Shown here piece by piece: positions 1,359-32,000 of a stretch of DNA of 32,000 nucleotides; position 1 is the first letter of the stretch, and each line of letters starts with the position of its first letter. The notes below the pieces were generated by a model. That model had not been told where the DNA came from, made no database searches, and saw nothing but the letters and a program-made list of their open reading frames with translations. The stretch lies in NCBI RefSeq assembly GCF_000018305.1, contig NC_009954.1, forward strand, positions 2,040,001-2,072,000, written 5' to 3'. The translations under genes were made by a program, and so were the position numbers. The stretch comes from Caldivirga maquilingensis IC-167 (GTDB lineage: Archaea; Thermoproteota; Thermoprotei; Thermoproteales; Thermocladiaceae).

Positions 1359-1450
1359 GGGCCCGTAGTCTAGCTTGGTTAGGATGCCCGCCTCACGGGT
1401 GCTGCATCTGGGATCGCGGGAGATCCCGGGTTCGAGTCCCGGCGGGCCCA
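1359..1450 (+). tRNA. tRNA-Val (anticodon CAC) with a 17-nt intron after position 37; no encoded CCA
   Basis: Cloverleaf read by eye. Acceptor GGGCCCG (1359-1365) pairs with CGGGCCC (1443-1449), with discriminator A1450. D arm GTCT/GGAT. Anticodon stem CCCGC (1387-1391) pairs with GCGGG (1416-1420). C32-U33 is followed by CAC (1394-1396) and G37. Variable loop AGATC. T arm CCGGG-TTCGAGT-CCCGG (1426-1442). The total is 92 nt, which is 75 nt plus 17 nt of intron. The locus is a GC-rich island in an AT-richer context. Confidence 0.8.
1398..1414 (+). other. tRNA intron (canonical 37/38 position) with a bulge-helix-bulge-compatible fold
   Basis: Loop nucleotides CUCA (1392-1395) can pair with intron UGGG (1409-1412) to form a 4-bp helix. 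It is flanked by 3-nt bulges C36-G37-G (5' splice site) and A-U-C38 (3' splice site). The outer helix is weak. Confidence 0.6.
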
Positions 1451-1474
1451 CTCATCATAGTGTTCTCAATAATG

Positions 1475-15650: not shown

Positions 15651-15759
15651 AACCCCTCACCGTGAAGTAAAGGAAGCCCAATTCCTCCAGGAATGAAATT
15701 AAATAATAAAGCCTAACTGAATCAAGTAAGCAACCCGCATGATGAAGATAATCATTAAA

Positions 15760-16006
15760 TTTGGAGCGCCAGAGTAGCGATAATATTAATACTGCATGCA
15801 ATGATCATTAGTAATGCTGATACTACGATGCTTGTTTACCTACTCACTTAGAATTTGGACTGTCAGAGTCGAGGTAGTATTAATACTATCGCTACTCTGG
15901 CGCTCCAAAACTCAATGAGGAAGAAATTCATTGCCGGAATCATACAATTAGCATTCACTGTACATTAACTTTAGTATTAATATTACCTCGACTCTGGCGC
16001 TCCAAA
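15760..16006. repeat. Array of four 34-bp units in interleaved inverted orientation (-> 60 bp -><- 63 bp <-)
   Basis: U1 (+) 15760-15793: TTTGGAGCGCCAGAG TAGCGAT AATATTAATACT. U2 (+) 15854-15887: TTTGGACTGTCAGAG TCGAGGT AGTATTAATACT. U3 (-) 15876-15909: TTTGGAGCGCCAGAG TAGCGAT AGTATTAATACT. U4 (-) 15973-16006: TTTGGAGCGCCAGAG TCGAGGT AATATTAATACT. U2 and U3 share the perfect 12-bp palindrome AGTATTAATACT (15876-15887). Confidence 0.9.
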
Positions 16007-16122
16007 ACTATGGTAACCTTGTTGATCGCGGAAGGGGCTAGGGGATTGTAATGAATTATCGTAAAAACATAGGCTGGAGCTATGCATTATATGCCTAGTT
16101 AACTCATTAATATTAAGTCTCT

Positions 16123-25649: not shown

Positions 25650-26474
25650 ATGAATGGTGTACTCTACATTGTGGGTATTGGACTTGCACCCAATCAAATA
25701 ACCCAGGAGGCTATTGAAGTCCTTAAGAACACTGGTGCAGTATTCATTGAGGAGTACACGTCAATGTTTGAGGTTAAGCCAAGCGAATACTTAACCAGGA
25801 TAATAGGTAAACCAGTGACACCGGTTAATAGGCGGGAGTTAGAGGAGGAGAATGGCAGTATATTAATCAAGGCTGTTAAGGAGTATGGCTCCGCAGCCTT
25901 AGTTACAATAGGTGACCCAATGATAGCCACAACACACTCAGCACTACTGATTACTGCCGTTGAGGCGGGGTTCAGTGTTAAGGTAATTAACGGTATTAGT
26001 ATAGTTTGTTCAGCTATTAGTCAAGTAGGCTTATCACCATATAAGCTTGGCCCAGTGGCCACGGTAACCTACGAGAGGGGTGGGGTATTGAGTAGGAGGG
26101 CTTATGAAGTGCTTTTAAGCAATATAAGTAATGGGCTTCACACACTCCTACTCCTTGATATTAAGGATGGTGGCGGCTTCATGAGTATCAAGGAGGCTGC
26201 TGAAGTATTAACTAGGATTGAGGATGAGGTTAAGTTAGGCTTAGTGAATGATGACCTAGCGGCAGTATTTGGTTCCAGGATTGGTTGGGTTGATCAAGCA
26301 ATTAAAGTCACCTCAATAACCAAGCCACCTGACCTAAAACCACCCAGCATAATAGTGGTGCCGGGTTTACTTAACCCAGTGGAATTAGACTTACTTAAGC
26401 TAGTTCACGGTGCTGATGAAGGCTTACTCAAGAGGCATATCGAGCACGTTAAGTCGTTTTTAAGGAACCCATAG
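25650..26474 (+). CDS. dphB: diphthine synthase (tetrapyrrole-methylase fold)
   Basis: N-terminal LYIVGIGL, then GDPMIATTH and the overall layout of Dph5/DphB. At 274 aa it is slightly long at the C-terminus, which overlaps the convergent gene. Confidence 0.85.
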   Translation: MNGVLYIVGIGLAPNQITQEAIEVLKNTGAVFIEEYTSMFEVKPSEYLTRIIGKPVTPVNRRELEEENGSILIKAVKEYGSAALVTIGDPMIATTHSALLITAVEAGFSVKVINGISIVCSAISQVGLSPYKLGPVATVTYERGGVLSRRAYEVLLSNISNGLHTLLLLDIKDGGGFMSIKEAAEVLTRIEDEVKLGLVNDDLAAVFGSRIGWVDQAIKVTSITKPPDLKPPSIIVVPGLLNPVELDLLKLVHGADEGLLKRHIEHVKSFLRNP

Positions 26475-27753
26475 CTTCACTTAAGACTTCACTAACCCTT
26501 CTTAATGCAGTGGCCCAGGTTGATTCAGGATCCTTAAATTCACCTGGGTCAACCACTAGTAGGTACATTGACTTACCATCATTCAACCTTAAATTAACGT
26601 ACCTACTTCGCCTACTTAATAGTAGTTCATAGAGCCTTGATGTTGCATCATCCTCATCATCGAAAACTATCCCCTTATTAAGGCCTGGGAAGACGAGTAT
26701 TCCCACGTTTGCGTTGTGCTCATACATGTATGCCATGACCTTAAACCTCCCAGCGGTTATGTAGCTTGGGTTAGTTGAGAACTTACACTCAAGCACTACA
26801 CTACGCCTATTCTTAACATATACGTCGGGCTTACCCACAATATGCTTAATGGCTTCTTTATTAGATTCCTCAGTTAATTCATCAACCCTCTCAATAATAC
26901 CCATGCTGATTGGTTTATTGAACATTAACTGCACAGAATCCCCAGTAATTGGATTAATGTAAAGTGAGTTAGAGCTCTTAACGTAACCCATTCCCCTTAA
27001 AGCAGTACTCACTAATGCGTATACAAGCACCTCATATAGCCTCCATGATAACATGACTAACGCATTATTACCCCTAATCCTCCTATGCCTTACGTAAACA
27101 CCACTATGCAGATGCTTAGTTAGGATTAGTGATTCATAGGCGATTCTCAGCCATCTTGGTGCACTTAATGAGAATCTACCATACTCCTCCTTAATGATGA
27201 TCCTATAGTTGGCTTTAGGCAATGAAGACACCTTAGGCCTTAATACATTAAGCAATCTACTTAAATTACCTAGATCACTCCTTAATCTTAGTGCTAATTC
27301 ATGATTAGGGTTAAGGCTTCGTATTACTTCCCCTAACCTCCTTACGGCCACCTTAACCCTCCTAATCACCATAGTTGAGATCTCCCTAAGTAGCATGTAT
27401 TCTGGGGCATTAATGCTGGGTAGGTAGGTTAAATAGGAGTAAAGGCTCATTGGGTATGTTACAATGGTATGCGGTACACTTAATGAACCAAGTACCTCAC
27501 TGCCCTGCTCAACACTGAATTCCCTATAGGTAAGCATATCCCTGAGTGCGGAGTCTATGGAGTGTCTCAGCATCTTTAAGGATAATGAAGCAATCATTAA
27601 CCTAATATACGCCTTAGTTAATTTATCAACCTTAACACCCATCCCCAATCCAATAAGTTCCTTAACATTAGAGTATGATGAGAAGTAGTATTTACTAACC
27701 AAGTATGCTAAATTCCTTAGCCTTTCCTCCTGCTTAGTATTTTGCCTACTCAT
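26449..27753 (-). CDS. McrC-like PD-(D/E)xK nuclease subunit
   Basis: 434 aa. GKPD(310)VYVKNRRSVVLE(322)CK(324) (nt 26782-26826) is a PD-x11-ExK motif. It is preceded by SWRLYEVLVYALV, as in McrC/DUF2357-type proteins. The ATG overlaps the stop of the upstream McrB-like gene (ATGA at 27750-27753). Confidence 0.65.
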   Translation of the reverse strand: MSRQNTKQEERLRNLAYLVSKYYFSSYSNVKELIGLGMGVKVDKLTKAYIRLMIASLSLKMLRHSIDSALRDMLTYREFSVEQGSEVLGSLSVPHTIVTYPMSLYSYLTYLPSINAPEYMLLREISTMVIRRVKVAVRRLGEVIRSLNPNHELALRLRSDLGNLSRLLNVLRPKVSSLPKANYRIIIKEEYGRFSLSAPRWLRIAYESLILTKHLHSGVYVRHRRIRGNNALVMLSWRLYEVLVYALVSTALRGMGYVKSSNSLYINPITGDSVQLMFNKPISMGIIERVDELTEESNKEAIKHIVGKPDVYVKNRRSVVLECKFSTNPSYITAGRFKVMAYMYEHNANVGILVFPGLNKGIVFDDEDDATSRLYELLLSRRSRYVNLRLNDGKSMYLLVVDPGEFKDPESTWATALRRVSEVLSEAMGSLKTT

Positions 27754-29519
27754 TGTTGATCACCTTTATTCTGTCTTAGAAATGATCCTAAGCGTTCATC
27801 AATTTCACTAAGTATCCTAGTACTTATCACACCTAGGGATGATTTTAAAGCCTCATTAAACTCAGTTAAGAGTGTTGATTCATTGTTTGAATCAAGTTCA
27901 CCTACCTGAATCATCCCATTAATTATATGTAATGCATTTAAAACGGCACCGGTTGATATGCAAACCCGTTCCCTTAATTTCCTATCGCTTCTGAGGTAGT
28001 TTATGTATTTAATTATGCTGTTAAGCATGTTATCGGGAATGCTAGGCCTCAAGGCTTTAACTTCATCTTCAACATCAGTAGTATTGGATGGGCATTTAAC
28101 CTCAATTACCTGGAACCTCCTAACCAGTGCATTACCGATTAAGAATAGATTCCTTAAATCCACTGCATTAATTATTGCTATTACCCTTAGTTTCCCCAAT
28201 GCCTCATCCTTATACTTACTGTAATTCTGCATGAATCTACTAGCCTCTTCATCAGCCCTATCACTATTAACCCACTTCCCAACCTCATCAACCAATTCAC
28301 TGATTAACTCCCAATTCTCTGGGTTAGGGGATCTGAATATTGTGAAGAATTCACCAAAGGCCTTATCGACATCAGCCCTATTTAACTCATCTATTATTAG
28401 GAAGAATGGTGAATCATATCCATTCGCCAACCTCTCCGCAGCCTTATTATACGCCTTAATCAGGAAACCTGAAACCCATTTAACGGAACCACTCTCAATG
28501 GTTTCACCCCCGATTACATCTCTCCTAAACCAAAGGGAGTTAGCAGTCTTAATCATGTAACCGCCATCCCCGGAAACACTCCTAGCCAGTAACTCAGCTA
28601 ACGTGGTCTTACCCATACCTGGTGGACCAACTAACATAACATTACCCAGTAATGCACTCACGATGAATCTACGTAATAACGCTTCATCAATACCATGCAA
28701 TTTCCCCTTAATTTCACTTAATAACTCATTAATTAATTCCTTGTTAAACCCCCTAGATAATTTATTACTTTGAGGAAATTGCCTAAGTACTGTGAATTCC
28801 TCGTAGAATTTAATCATAGAGTTAGTCTCATTATCAGTTAATAGACCCTTTATTATCTTATTCCAAAATATATCAATTATATCTTTATCATCATAACAAA
28901 TATTACCTCGGGGAATCAATTTTTCTCTACCCAATTCTTTTAATAATTTATTAATAATGAGCTTGTCTCCGGCATTTTTTAATTCATTTTCAACTGAGTC
29001 GTTATAATCTTCATACTTTATCAGTAGCTTACGAACCTCCTCATCAATCCACAGTATCCTAATTCTCCATCTAATCAGCCAATATCTATTCTCTTTCTCT
29101 TCCTCCCTCCAATACTTAAAGTTCCTATATACGTCAAAGTTTATATCAGTGATTAGACCAAAACCTACGTAGCCTGCATTATTTATGTAGAATAAGCCGA
29201 TTAAGGGCTTAATATCATTAAGGTTCCTAATTGCTTTATTATCAGCTAATAATAATCCCTCTCTATATTTACTAACCAGTGCTCTAAAGGGAAGGCCGGT
29301 TGACTCATCAACTGAGGAAGAACTCTGCAAACTGGCTCCCCATAAAGTGTAGCCTTTTTCTCCTCGCATGGAATACTTAAATGACCAAAACCAATGCTCT
29401 GCACGACCTGGGAAAGTACATATATTGACTTCTTTCCTGTCTCTTAACCATTCAAGTAAGTCCTTTAAATTAGTTAATTTACTAAAGGGCTCCCTATAGG
29501 TTAACCAATCCCCATACAC
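27750..29519 (-). CDS. McrB-type AAA+ GTPase with an unassigned aromatic-rich N-terminal domain (putative DNA/modified-base reader)
   Basis: 589 aa. Walker A GPPGMGKT (nt 28605-28628). FFLIIDELNRADVDKAFGEFFTIF (Walker B region nt 28371-28400) and ALVRRFQVIEV match the McrB-family xIIDE[IL]NRA / RRF signature. Residues 1-165 are W/F/Y-rich (HWFWSF, LFYINNAGYVGFGLI, RYWLIRWRIRILW). Confidence 0.75.
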   Translation of the reverse strand: MYGDWLTYREPFSKLTNLKDLLEWLRDRKEVNICTFPGRAEHWFWSFKYSMRGEKGYTLWGASLQSSSSVDESTGLPFRALVSKYREGLLLADNKAIRNLNDIKPLIGLFYINNAGYVGFGLITDINFDVYRNFKYWREEEKENRYWLIRWRIRILWIDEEVRKLLIKYEDYNDSVENELKNAGDKLIINKLLKELGREKLIPRGNICYDDKDIIDIFWNKIIKGLLTDNETNSMIKFYEEFTVLRQFPQSNKLSRGFNKELINELLSEIKGKLHGIDEALLRRFIVSALLGNVMLVGPPGMGKTTLAELLARSVSGDGGYMIKTANSLWFRRDVIGGETIESGSVKWVSGFLIKAYNKAAERLANGYDSPFFLIIDELNRADVDKAFGEFFTIFRSPNPENWELISELVDEVGKWVNSDRADEEASRFMQNYSKYKDEALGKLRVIAIINAVDLRNLFLIGNALVRRFQVIEVKCPSNTTDVEDEVKALRPSIPDNMLNSIIKYINYLRSDRKLRERVCISTGAVLNALHIINGMIQVGELDSNNESTLLTEFNEALKSSLGVISTRILSEIDERLGSFLRQNKGDQQ

Positions 29520-29540: not shown

Positions 29541-29550
29541 GCTTTAAAAG
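29541..29550 (-). promoter_or_regulatory. TATA-like box for the McrB-like/McrC-like operon
   Basis: The minus strand reads CTTTTAAAGC, centred about 27 nt upstream of GTG 29519. Confidence 0.5.
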
Positions 29551-31643: not shown

Positions 31644-32000
31644 TTAGGTGGATTGCTTAAGTATTACCACTCCCCTAGGATCCTTAACCCTAACTGCTAA
31701 GATTTCCCATAACCTAAACTCATGGTCACCATCCCCAGCACCTAAGTACACTAAGGCTGTATCCACCCCAACGGCTACATCAATTACTGACTGATGGGTT
31801 GAGGCAAGTATTGCTTCATCATCCCTTAACTGCGGTATTACTACAACATCCTTAATAAGGGATTTAACCCTAGTTAACTCCATGACACCGGTCCTCTCAT
31901 TAACCATAAGCAACCTAGTATACCTACTAGGACTAGTGAAGAGTACGTAAGGCTCAGGCACGTAGTTTGCGTATAATGCATTAACGGCGCTTGAAACCTC
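31644..32000 (-). CDS. hypothetical protein, 5'-truncated by the window edge
   Basis: The ORF track starts at GTG 31961, but the frame stays open to nt 32000 (...EVSSAVNALYANYVPEPYV...), so the gene probably begins beyond the window. No motif recognised. Confidence 0.45.
   Translation of the reverse strand, partial: EVSSAVNALYANYVPEPYVLFTSPSRYTRLLMVNERTGVMELTRVKSLIKDVVVIPQLRDDEAILASTHQSVIDVAVGVDTALVYLGAGDGDHEFRLWEILAVRVKDPRGVVILKQST

What the first reader, a model, noticed from the sequence alone, without database searches (positions are those of the whole stretch)
26449..29519. McrB-type GTPase with an unassigned N-terminal domain plus a McrC-like nuclease: candidate archaeal modification-dependent restriction/defence module
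Seen in sequence: two minus-strand genes overlap by ATGA (27750-27753). They share one leaderless-type promoter, a TATA at 29541-29550 that lies 27 nt upstream of GTG 29519. The 589-aa product carries Walker A GPPGMGKT, FFLIIDELNRADVDKAFGEFFTIF and ALVRRFQVIEV. The 434-aa product carries PD310-x11-E322-C-K324 preceded by WRLYEVLVY. Established knowledge: xIIDE(I/L)NRA with a downstream RRF block is the signature of McrB-family GTP-dependent AAA+ motors. These motors act with a PD-(D/E)xK partner (McrC), and their N-terminal domains determine which DNA modification is read. Inference: residues 1-165 (HWFWSFKY...TLWG...GLFYINNAGYVGFGLI...RYWLIRWRIRILW) replace the E. coli-type DNA-binding domain. 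The pattern is beta-rich and aromatic, and is reminiscent of PUA-like (EVE/ASCH/YTH-type) readers. I cannot align it confidently to any of them, so it may be a new specificity domain. A long K/N/I/D/E-rich linker (residues ~160-290) separates it from the motor. No methyltransferase is present anywhere in the window, which fits a type IV-like (modification-dependent) logic.
Basis: partly seen in the sequence, partly recalled or inferred. Interest (0 to 1): 0.78.

Follow-up and report, generated by a model that had tools for sequence, protein, structure and literature searches.

The report
Archaeal McrBC-type restriction gene pair
Two overlapping genes in the archaeon Caldivirga maquilingensis encode a divergent McrBC-type DNA-restriction system: a motor protein whose front end is predicted to fold like a YTH-type reader of modified bases, plus a partner nuclease. 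This is a known kind of defence system whose target modification has not been tested.

Summary
The source is Caldivirga maquilingensis, and GenBank/UniProt already label the pair "AAA_5 ATPase" and "5-methylcytosine restriction system component-like".

The 589-aa protein has a McrB-type AAA+ motor (hhalign to E. coli McrB, E 3e-21). It carries Walker A/B, a variant McrB consensus loop (N451-x-x-D454-x-R-N) and the tandem arginines R467/R468.

Residues 1-160 have no sequence-family match. A confident AlphaFold model (pLDDT 89.7) matches YTH domains best, then ASCH, so the fold is PUA-like. Residues 160-247 model as ordered helices, not a loose linker. Sister proteins with about 46% identical motors carry Pfam EVE or MrcB_N domains in the same position, so this slot holds an exchangeable reader.

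The 434-aa protein has an invariant E241…P309-D310…(D/E)322-x-K324 nuclease core, which aligns weakly to the E. coli McrC core. Distant relatives reach Pfam DUF2357, PDDEXK_7 and McrBC.

The two genes are adjacent in all 13 loci examined, in three arrangements. No DNA methyltransferase lies in the window.

Target modification and nucleotide preference are untested.

The parts
29541..29550 (-). TATA-like promoter element (CTTTTAAAGC), centred about 26-27 nt upstream of the GTG start. This fits a leaderless transcript covering both genes.
   Evidence: Sequence read. Same element and spacing in Caldivirga sp. UBA161; a TATA-like element also precedes the Thermocladium start. Promoter function is inferred, not shown.
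27750..29519 (-). mcrB-like gene, 589 aa, GTG start. Layout: YTH-like reader, helical subdomain, then McrB-type AAA+ motor.
29040..29519 (-). Residues 1-160: alpha/beta domain with a predicted PUA-like (YTH/ASCH-type) fold; the putative modified-base reader. Conserved residues: C34, H42, W43, Y49, S50, E54, Y57, W60, G119, G121, D125, D129, R132, F134, W137, W147, R150, R152.
   Evidence: AF2 pLDDT 89.7, pTM 0.87. Foldseek PDB top hits are YTH domains, then ASCH. Conservation. No Pfam or PDB sequence match.
28740..29039 (-). Residues 161-260: helical subdomain (helices 160-168, 174-186, 188-194, 198-201, 212-226, 229-247). Residues 165-205 are variable; N206, C208, I226 and Y239 are conserved. 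The model becomes disordered after about residue 248, leading into the motor.
27753..28739 (-). Residues 261-589: McrB-type AAA+ (AAA_5) NTPase motor and C-terminal helical part.
   Evidence: Pfam AAA_5 293-469, E 1.2e-12. Best solved relatives are E. coli and T. gammatolerans McrB. hhalign of family profile A1 against EcMcrB: probability 99.4, E 3.1e-21.
28605..28628 (-). Walker A motif, GPPGMGKT (298-305).
28371..28397 (-). Walker B block, IIDELNRAD (375-383). D377, E378, N380, R381, A382 and D383 are invariant. It aligns with EcMcrB IIDEINRAN.
28149..28172 (-). McrB consensus-loop equivalent, INAVDLRN (450-457); the family consensus is MNxxDxRN. N451 and D454 are invariant. It aligns with EcMcrB MNTAD-RS with a one-residue insertion.
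   Evidence: Motif definition from PMC7680126 and bioRxiv 10.64898/2026.08.31.748284.
28116..28121 (-). Tandem arginines R467/R468 (ALVRRF), the sensor II / arginine-finger equivalent.
   Evidence: Invariant. Aligned to EcMcrB ALRRRF. Role taken from PMC7680126.
26449..27753 (-). mcrC-like gene, 434 aa. Its ATG overlaps the mcrB stop (ATGA). Its 3' end overlaps the convergent dph5-like gene by 26 nt.
27064..27753 (-). Residues 1-230: helical N-terminal half, homologous by transitive evidence to the McrC N-terminal DUF2357 ('finger') region.
   Evidence: AF2 helices 2-24, 44-71, 117-145, 152-176, 187-215. Distant family members hit Pfam DUF2357; P0281 scores 28.1 bits against a cut-off of 23.3. 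A3-A5 hhalign E 1.4e-50.
27400..27534 (-). Residues 74-118: a well-conserved stretch of the N-terminal half (YREFS..G.L.VP.T..YP..Y..LTY.P...APEY). The isolated model is low-confidence here. It is the candidate stalk/tip that would insert into the McrB ring (inference).
   Evidence: Conservation; pLDDT below 50 for residues 74-110; analogy to the TgMcrC finger domain (PMC7680126).
26452..27063 (-). Residues 231-434: PD-(D/E)xK nuclease domain.
   Evidence: Foldseek hits to the Can2 CARF-nuclease, BstYI, PaqCI, BbvCI and the Hef nuclease domain. Weak PADLOC Cas4 hits at 290-361. hhalign to EcMcrC over the catalytic core.
26782..26829 (-). Catalytic motif P309-D310-x11-E322-C-K324. Together with E241 (27031-27033) in helix WRLYE.
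   Evidence: E241, P309, D310 and K324 are invariant; position 322 is E or D in all 37 sequences. The same residues are invariant in distant set A5.

Best explanation

Proposed mechanism, step by step:
- The 589-aa subunit assembles through its AAA+ domain into a nucleotide-bound hexamer (inferred).
- Its N-terminal YTH-like PUA-fold domain binds foreign DNA that carries a modified base, probably by flipping the base into a pocket lined by the conserved aromatic residues (inferred).
- The 434-aa subunit docks its DUF2357-like N-terminal half into the ring. The conserved 74-118 stretch is the likely contact. Docking would stimulate NTP hydrolysis through the N451/D454 loop (inferred).
- The complex translocates along DNA, and the E241/D310/E322/K324 PD-(D/E)xK site cuts it (inferred).

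What is shown here: the gene structure, the motifs, homology of the motor to McrB, the predicted folds, modular exchange of the N-terminal domain, and strict gene linkage.

What is inferred: the identity of the modification (6mA by analogy with T. gammatolerans McrB; methylated cytosines are also possible), GTP preference, hexamer formation, and an antiviral role.
For: Motor
- Pfam AAA_5.
- The best NCBIfam and PDB sequence matches are McrB.
- The family profile against EcMcrB gives probability 99.4, E 3.1e-21, with Walker A/B, N451/D454 and R467/R468 in register.

Reader
- The AF2 model has pLDDT 89.7 and pTM 0.87.
- Top PDB matches are YTH domains (Mmi1, CPSF30, YTHDC1; probability 0.94-1.0, target TM 0.45-0.54), then ASCH. 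ASCH-like matches also appear among viral proteins.
- Proteins with a closely related motor (46% identity over 262-567) carry Pfam EVE in the same position. Others carry MrcB_N, the E. coli-type reader. All are paired with the same McrC-like family.

Nuclease
- The E...PD...(D/E)xK core is invariant.
- It aligns in register with the EcMcrC catalytic core.
- Structural matches are nucleases of the PD-(D/E)xK class.
- Distant relatives reach Pfam DUF2357, PDDEXK_7 and McrBC.

Linkage
- The genes are adjacent in 13 of 13 loci: B then C, C then B, or divergent.

Context
- Elsewhere the pair sits next to CRISPR-Cas genes (T. tenax), next to a PIN/RHH pair and an N6_N4 methyltransferase (L019), and near a Schlafen-like helicase and HerA/NurA genes (S. 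solfataricus).
- There is no DNA methyltransferase in the window.
- Both genes are low in G+C: 0.369 and 0.402, against 0.448 +/- 0.018 for the neighbours.
Against: - There is no biochemical or genetic evidence for this clade.
- The N-terminal domain has no sequence-level link to YTH, EVE or ASCH. The Foldseek E-values are modest (best 1.9e-3), and neither solved archaeal McrB reader domain appears among the 50 listed matches.
- Solved McrC chains are not among the 50 listed structural matches of the 434-aa model. The protein itself hits no McrC Pfam model. The direct hhalign to EcMcrC is weak (probability 21-32%).
- In this genome the neighbours are housekeeping genes. The beta-CASP/dph5 side is shared with Caldivirga sp. 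UBA161 and partly with Thermocladium. So the locus does not look like a mobile defence island here.
- YTH domains in eukaryotes read RNA.
Confidence: 0.75

Rival explanations
1. The system is an McrBC-like restriction enzyme that recognises a DNA sequence or structure rather than a modification, as LlaJI/LlaI-type homologues do. On this reading the N-terminal domain is a general DNA-binding module.
For: Non-canonical McrBC homologues bind DNA site-specifically (PMC7680126; bioRxiv 10.64898/2026.08.31.748284, abstract). No aromatic cage could be verified here, because model coordinates are not returned.
Against: The fold matches are to modified-base readers (YTH, ASCH, SRA). The interchangeable domains in sister proteins are EVE and MrcB_N, both modification readers. 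No cognate methyltransferase that would protect the host from a sequence-specific enzyme lies in the window.
Confidence: 0.1
2. The pair acts on RNA, or has a housekeeping nucleic-acid surveillance role such as reading m6A or other modified RNA, rather than acting in antiviral DNA restriction.
For: The closest structural matches are eukaryotic m6A-RNA readers. RNA targeting has been proposed for another McrBC branch, the CoCoNuTs (PMC11090510). In Caldivirga and Thermocladium the pair sits beside a beta-CASP RNase-family gene among housekeeping genes.
Against: The one characterised archaeal YTH-McrB reads 6mA in DNA (PMC7680126). [quoted passage not shown] Adjacency to beta-CASP is limited to one family and is absent in Sulfolobales, Acidilobus and T. 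tenax. Elsewhere the neighbours are defence genes.
Confidence: 0.08
3. The locus is a decaying or inactive relic that is retained but no longer functions.
For: Both genes have low G+C. The consensus-loop methionine is replaced (IIN instead of TMN). The homologues in the Vulcanisaeta distributa and Thermocladium modestius drafts appear split across frames.
Against: Both ORFs are intact. All catalytic and nucleotide-binding residues are preserved. The promoter and the overlapping stop/start are conserved. The frame breaks occur in draft assemblies and may be sequencing errors.
Confidence: 0.05

Closest known systems
Thermococcus gammatolerans McrBC (YTH-domain McrB plus McrC; cryo-EM structures, Niu et al. 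2020, PMC7680126)
   Same: - It is archaeal and has two genes.
- It has an N-terminal YTH-type PUA-fold reader followed by a McrB AAA+ motor with Walker A/B, an NxxD loop and tandem arginines.
- Its partner has an N-terminal ring-inserting region and a C-terminal PD-(D/E)xK nuclease.
- No methyltransferase partner is required.
   Different: - The only direct sequence match to TgMcrB is a short Walker B stretch (E 7.5e-5, residues 370-397).
- This protein has an extra roughly 90-residue helical subdomain.
- The consensus loop carries a one-residue insertion (MNxxDxRN).
- The McrC-like partner escapes all McrC Pfam models and lacks a structural match to solved McrC among the listed hits.
- The target modification is unknown.
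Escherichia coli K-12 McrBC (EcoKMcrBC)
   Same: - The motor is homologous (hhalign E 3.1e-21).
- The nuclease catalytic core aligns in register.
- Both have adjacent mcrB-mcrC genes; in E. coli K-12 the two annotated genes share one base.
   Different: - The E. coli reader is the DUF3578/MrcB_N domain, not a YTH-like barrel.
- The NCBIfam McrB equivalog score is 33.7 bits against a cut-off of 637, so this is not an orthologue.
- The McrC N-terminal half is not detectably similar by direct comparison.
EVE-McrB fusions (Bell et al. 2020, PMC7641849), including metagenomic sisters P0045 and P0049
   Same: - They have the same architecture and the same McrC-like partner family (P0125, 37% identity).
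- The motor is 46% identical.
   Different: Those proteins carry a canonical Pfam EVE domain. hhalign finds no relationship between that domain and the domain here.

Membership tests
McrB family (AAA+ NTPase subunit of McrBC) | AAA+ domain of the AAA_5 type with Walker A and with Walker B in the form (I/L)IDE(I/L)NRA | tested here: met
   Pfam AAA_5 E 1.2e-12. GPPGMGKT 298-305 and IIDELNRAD 375-383 are invariant across 46 homologues and align to EcMcrB.
McrB family (AAA+ NTPase subunit of McrBC) | McrB consensus loop MNxxDRS replacing sensor I (PMC7680126) | tested here: met
   Met in variant form. The sequence is I-N451-A-V-D454-L-R-N and the family consensus is MNxxDxRN. N451 and D454 are invariant. 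hhalign aligns it to EcMcrB MNTAD-RS with a one-residue insertion.
McrB family (AAA+ NTPase subunit of McrBC) | Tandem arginines acting as sensor II / arginine finger | tested here: met
   R467 and R468 are invariant and align to EcMcrB RRRF.
McrB family (AAA+ NTPase subunit of McrBC) | Preference for GTP; hexamer formation; stimulation by McrC | not testable with these tools
   The specificity determinants lie outside the core motifs (PMC7680126). Some homologues are nucleotide-promiscuous (bioRxiv 10.64898/2026.08.31.748284).
McrB family (AAA+ NTPase subunit of McrBC) | Orthology to E. coli McrB (NCBIfam equivalog PRK11331 cut-off) | tested here: not met
   33.7 bits against a cut-off of 637. 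The protein is a family-level relative, not an orthologue.
McrC family (DUF2357 plus PD-(D/E)xK nuclease) | C-terminal PD-(D/E)xK catalytic core | tested here: met
   E241, P309, D310 and K324 are invariant, and position 322 is E or D. hhalign aligns D310/E322/K324 with the EcMcrC core TDITI...IVDAKYY (E 1e-3 and 5e-4). Foldseek matches are to PD-(D/E)xK-class nucleases. No structural superposition of the catalytic residues was possible.
McrC family (DUF2357 plus PD-(D/E)xK nuclease) | N-terminal DUF2357 / finger domain that inserts into the McrB ring | tested here: inconclusive
   Neither the protein nor its 36 close homologues hit Pfam directly. Among distant relatives found with its profile, 11 of 53 match DUF2357 (best 28.1 bits, cut-off 23.3), 4 match PDDEXK_7 and 2 match McrBC. 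These relatives are homologous over full length. The candidate stalk (74-110) is modelled with low confidence.
McrC family (DUF2357 plus PD-(D/E)xK nuclease) | Structural similarity to solved McrC | tested here: not met
McrC family (DUF2357 plus PD-(D/E)xK nuclease) | Encoded next to the McrB gene | tested here: met
   13 of 13 loci.
YTH / EVE / ASCH (PUA-like modified-base readers) | PUA-like beta-barrel fold | tested here: met
   AF2 pLDDT 89.7. Foldseek matches YTH domains at probability 0.94-1.0 and target TM 0.45-0.54, and ASCH at lower scores. This rests on a predicted, not an experimental, structure.
YTH / EVE / ASCH (PUA-like modified-base readers) | Sequence-family membership (Pfam YTH, EVE or ASCH) | tested here: not met
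   No Pfam hit for any of 29 domain sequences. No PDB profile hit. hhalign is negative against an EVE domain and against a YTHDC1 sequence recalled from memory.
YTH / EVE / ASCH (PUA-like modified-base readers) | Aromatic cage that holds a flipped modified base | not testable with these tools
   Conserved aromatics exist (W43, Y49, Y57, W60, F134, W137, W147). Model coordinates are not returned, so their geometry could not be checked.
Type IV (modification-dependent) restriction | No cognate DNA methyltransferase | tested here: met
   Pfam scans of 27 other ORFs in the window found no DNA methyltransferase. This covers only 32 kb.

The most novel reading that the evidence does not exclude
The N-terminal module (YTH-like barrel plus conserved helical subdomain, with the invariant pair C34/C208) could be a distinct crenarchaeal reader family. 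It might recognise something other than 6mA or 5mC, for example a modification specific to crenarchaeal viruses, or modified RNA. It would be coupled to a McrC lineage so divergent that its ring-docking mode may differ from the solved complexes.
Probability: 0.15. Interest if true: 0.6.

Novelty: new member of a known kind. Interest (0 to 1): 0.33.

Why it matters
Defence systems of Crenarchaeota (Thermoproteota) are poorly characterised experimentally, and their viruses are unusual. This clade occurs in Caldivirga, Thermocladium, Vulcanisaeta, Acidilobus, Caldisphaera and many Sulfolobales, including genetically tractable Saccharolobus and Sulfolobus. It offers a testable McrBC system whose reader domain is invisible to sequence-family libraries.

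It would also add a sequence-divergent YTH-like reader to the set of known modified-base readers.

In practice, the results correct a truncated RefSeq gene model. They also give a rationale for annotating the 'hypothetical' 434-aa family as McrC-like.

Tried and rejected
- A profile search with the N-terminal domain alone against the 5.8-billion-protein set returned only two fragments and missed the known family members. It says nothing about other architectures.
- The viral-contig scan found only three distant motor-only relatives at about 30% identity, so there is no sign the system is virus-borne.
- hhalign of the N-terminal profile was negative against the EVE domain of P0045, the T. tenax N-terminus, and a YTHDC1 sequence recalled from memory.
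- PDB profile searches with the McrC-like alignments gave only coiled-coil noise and a weak hit to chain 4ic1_A ('Uncharacterized protein', E 0.02) over the nuclease core.
- PADLOC gave no defence-system assignment beyond weak Cas4 and P-loop hits.
- Rfam found nothing in the window.
- A mobile defence-island reading for this genome was considered and rejected, because all neighbours are housekeeping genes.

Full report
**Observation**

The two minus-strand ORFs exist exactly as described. One spans 27750..29519 (589 aa, GTG start). The other spans 26449..27753 (434 aa, ATG start). Their junction reads ATGA on the coding strand, so the stop TGA overlaps the start ATG. Every quoted motif sits at the stated residue numbers.

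The element CTTTTAAAGC lies at 29550-29541. Its TATA-like core is centred about 26-27 nt upstream of the GTG. The same element, spacing and GTG-TAT-GG start recur in Caldivirga sp. UBA161. A TATA-like TTAAAAATAA precedes the GTG start in Thermocladium. A leaderless bicistronic transcript is therefore a reasonable, though unproven, reading.

The window comes from Caldivirga maquilingensis (100% identity to P0001 and P0121, 2.08-Mb contig). GenBank ABW02808.1 carries the 589-aa model. RefSeq WP_052290738.1 (526 aa) starts at TTG codon 64. Homologues begin MYG(D/E)WL and keep C34, W43, Y49, S50 and W60 invariant or nearly so. The long model is therefore correct.

**The motor**

Pfam places an AAA_5 domain at residues 293-469 (E 1.2e-12). 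The best NCBIfam model is E. coli McrB, far below its equivalog cut-off (33.7 bits against 637). The best solved relatives by sequence are E. coli McrB (E 4e-8) and T. gammatolerans McrB.

A profile of 46 full-length homologues aligns to E. coli K-12 McrB with probability 99.4 and E 3.1e-21 (locus fetched; alignment). The following features fall in register:

- Walker A.
- Walker B (IIDELNRAD against IIDEINRAN).
- The consensus loop (IIATMNLVDvRN against IIGLMNTAD-RS).
- The tandem arginines (ALxRRF against ALRRRF).

N451, D454, R467 and R468 are invariant in the family. These features define McrB (PMC7680126; bioRxiv 10.64898/2026.08.31.748284). They are met, with a one-residue insertion in the loop. 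GTP preference cannot be inferred from them, because non-canonical McrB homologues hydrolyse several nucleotides.

**The N-terminal region**

A profile of residues 1-170 from 29 homologues hits nothing meaningful in Pfam or in PDB sequences. An AlphaFold2 model of residues 1-260, built with 71 sequences, is confident (pLDDT 89.7, pTM 0.87).

Foldseek against the PDB returns YTH domains first: Mmi1, CPSF30-YTH and many YTHDC1 entries. For these, probability is 0.94-1.0, the best E-value is 1.9e-3 and target-normalised TM is 0.45-0.54. ASCH proteins follow, then a weak SRA hit. The viral structure library adds ASCH-like entries. All of these belong to the PUA-like superfamily of modified-base readers (PMC7641849).

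The supposed 160-290 linker is not loose. Residues 160-247 form six confident helices. N206, C208, I226 and Y239 are conserved, while residues 165-205 are variable and are deleted in Sulfolobales.

hhalign finds no sequence relationship to three comparison domains: an EVE domain from a sister protein, the Thermoproteus tenax N-terminus, and a YTHDC1 sequence recalled from memory. The domain is thus a sequence orphan with a YTH-like predicted fold.

**Modularity**

Several proteins share a closely related motor but carry a different N-terminal domain:

- P0045 and P0049 share 46% identity over residues 262-567 and carry a canonical Pfam EVE domain in place of this domain.
- Others carry MrcB_N, the E. 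coli-type reader.
- T. tenax has yet another N-terminus.

All of them are paired with members of the same 434-aa family (hmmsearch E of 1e-82 or lower). Known modification readers therefore occupy the same slot on the same machine. This is the strongest indirect argument that residues 1-160 are a specificity module.

**The 434-aa protein**

The protein hits no Pfam or NCBIfam model, and neither do its 36 close homologues against Pfam. PADLOC gives only weak Cas4 hits over residues 290-361.

Alignment of 37 homologues shows that W201, L239-Y240-E241, G307, P309-D310, K324, S326 and the block R336-x-K338-x-M340-A-Y-M343 are invariant. Position 322 is always E or D.

The AF2 model (pLDDT 78.8) has a helical N-terminal half and an alpha/beta C-terminal half. 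Residues 74-110 are poorly modelled and overlap a well-conserved stretch of the N-terminal half (YREFS...VP.T..YP...APEY). Foldseek matches Can2, BstYI, PaqCI, BbvCI and the Hef nuclease domain, all of the PD-(D/E)xK class. No solved McrC appears among the 50 listed matches.

An exhaustive profile search of 1.84 billion representative proteins found only 132 relatives. The distant ones are homologous over full length (hhalign E 1.4e-50). Of 53 of these, 11 match Pfam DUF2357 (P0281 scores 28.1 bits against a cut-off of 23.3), 4 match PDDEXK_7 and 2 match McrBC.

Direct hhalign to E. coli McrC is weak (E 1e-3 and 5e-4; probability 21-32%). It nevertheless places D310, E322 and K324 in register with the core TDITI...IVDAKYY. 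From memory, this core holds the published catalytic residues D244, D257 and K259. I therefore regard the protein as a highly divergent McrC. The nuclease core is established. The ring-inserting domain is supported only transitively.

**Linkage and context**

The two genes are adjacent in all 13 loci examined, in three arrangements:

- B then C: Caldivirga (two species), Thermocladium (two), Vulcanisaeta, Acidilobus, Metallosphaera sedula, T. tenax, and metagenomic loci L001 and L019.
- C then B: Saccharolobus solfataricus and Sulfolobaceae RB850M.
- Divergent: Sulfolobales Acd1.

In this genome the neighbours are housekeeping genes. They include a beta-CASP nuclease-family gene, a dph5-like gene, a KaiC-like ATPase, an epimerase, ProRS and an RNA polymerase Rpb4 subunit. 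No DNA methyltransferase is present. The beta-CASP/dph5 side is shared with Caldivirga sp. UBA161, and beta-CASP adjacency is shared with Thermocladium. The other flank is rearranged.

Elsewhere the pair sits beside cas3, cas3-HD and cas6 (T. tenax). In L019 it sits beside a PIN/RHH pair and an N6_N4 methyltransferase. In S. solfataricus it lies near a Schlafen-like helicase and a HerA/NurA pair.

Both genes are low in G+C: 0.369 and 0.402, against 0.448 +/- 0.018 for the other 23 genes. Together this fits an accessory defence module that has been stably resident in the Caldivirga/Thermocladium lineage.

**Mechanism**

The best-supported model is a canonical McrBC cycle, following PMC7680126. 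The YTH-like domain would select DNA bearing a modified base. The motor would hexamerise on nucleotide. The McrC-like subunit would insert its N-terminal half, probably residues 74-118, and stimulate hydrolysis through the N451/D454 loop. Translocation would then deliver DNA to the E241/D310/E322/K324 site.

6mA is the leading candidate modification, by analogy with TgMcrB, whose YTH domain reads 6mA DNA (PMC7680126). Methylated cytosines are equally conceivable, given what EVE and SRA domains read.

The rivals are sequence-specific restriction, an RNA-directed or housekeeping role, and an inactive relic. All are less well supported.

**Comparison and novelty**

Reader-McrB plus McrC systems with PUA-like readers are an established class. 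Examples are the EVE-McrB fusions found in nearly 300 genera and YTH-McrB in Thermococcus (PMC7641849; PMC7680126). The pair is already labelled McrBC-like in GenBank and UniProt, and Saccharolobus orthologues are named 'McrB family protein'.

This work adds the fold assignment of an unclassified reader domain, the ordered helical subdomain, a transitive link from the 'hypothetical' partner to McrC, the linkage statistics, and a corrected start site.

It is a new, divergent member of a known kind. It is of moderate interest mainly as an experimentally approachable crenarchaeal defence system with unknown specificity.

Noticed in passing
window 29331-29519 (codons 1-63 of the mcrB-like gene): RefSeq model WP_052290738.1 (526 aa) starts at TTG codon 64. 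It omits a conserved N-terminus that includes C34, W43, Y49, S50 and W60. GenBank ABW02808.1 has the full 589 aa. The UBA161 orthologue also appears to be annotated from an internal ATG, although the GTG start is conserved in its DNA.
   Followed up: yes
window 15758-16009: This intergenic region holds two overlapping units of about 150 nt, each bounded by 34-35-nt inverted repeats (TTTGGAGCGCCAGAGTAGCGATAATATTAATACT and its complement; 89-97% complementary). They look like MITE-like elements or a structured RNA. No Rfam match.
   Followed up: partly
window 26449-26474: The 3' ends of the mcrC-like gene and the convergent dph5-like (TP_methylase) gene overlap by 26 nt.
   Followed up: no
window 1359-1451: The tRNA-Val(CAC) called by ARAGORN is 93 nt long, which suggests an intron-bearing archaeal tRNA.
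   Followed up: no
window 31644-31961: A 105-aa ORF matches only the C-terminal third (positions 167-252 of 253) of the Linocin_M18/encapsulin profile. It may be a truncated or frameshifted encapsulin gene near the window edge.
   Followed up: no
L011 6168-7222 (Sulfolobaceae archaeon RB850M): A second mcrC-like copy lies about 3 kb downstream of the C-then-B pair. It is split into two tblastn segments, so it may be a pseudogene or a second system.
   Followed up: no
L007 5214-6872 (Vulcanisaeta distributa JCM 11217) and L009 4920-6551 (Thermocladium modestius JCM 10088): The mcrB-like homologues match in several separate pieces next to an mcrC-like gene that matches in one piece. These are either frameshifted pseudogenes or sequencing errors in draft assemblies.
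   Followed up: no
L003 8295-11244 (S. solfataricus) and L001 1792-4945: A HerA-like (DUF87) and NurA gene pair lies within about 1 kb of the McrBC-like pair in two distant loci. This could be a recurrent defence-island association.
   Followed up: no
window 27750-29519 and 26449-27753: Both genes are markedly lower in G+C than their neighbours (0.369 and 0.402 against 0.448 +/- 0.018). The lowest value is in the helical subdomain (0.281).
   Followed up: partly
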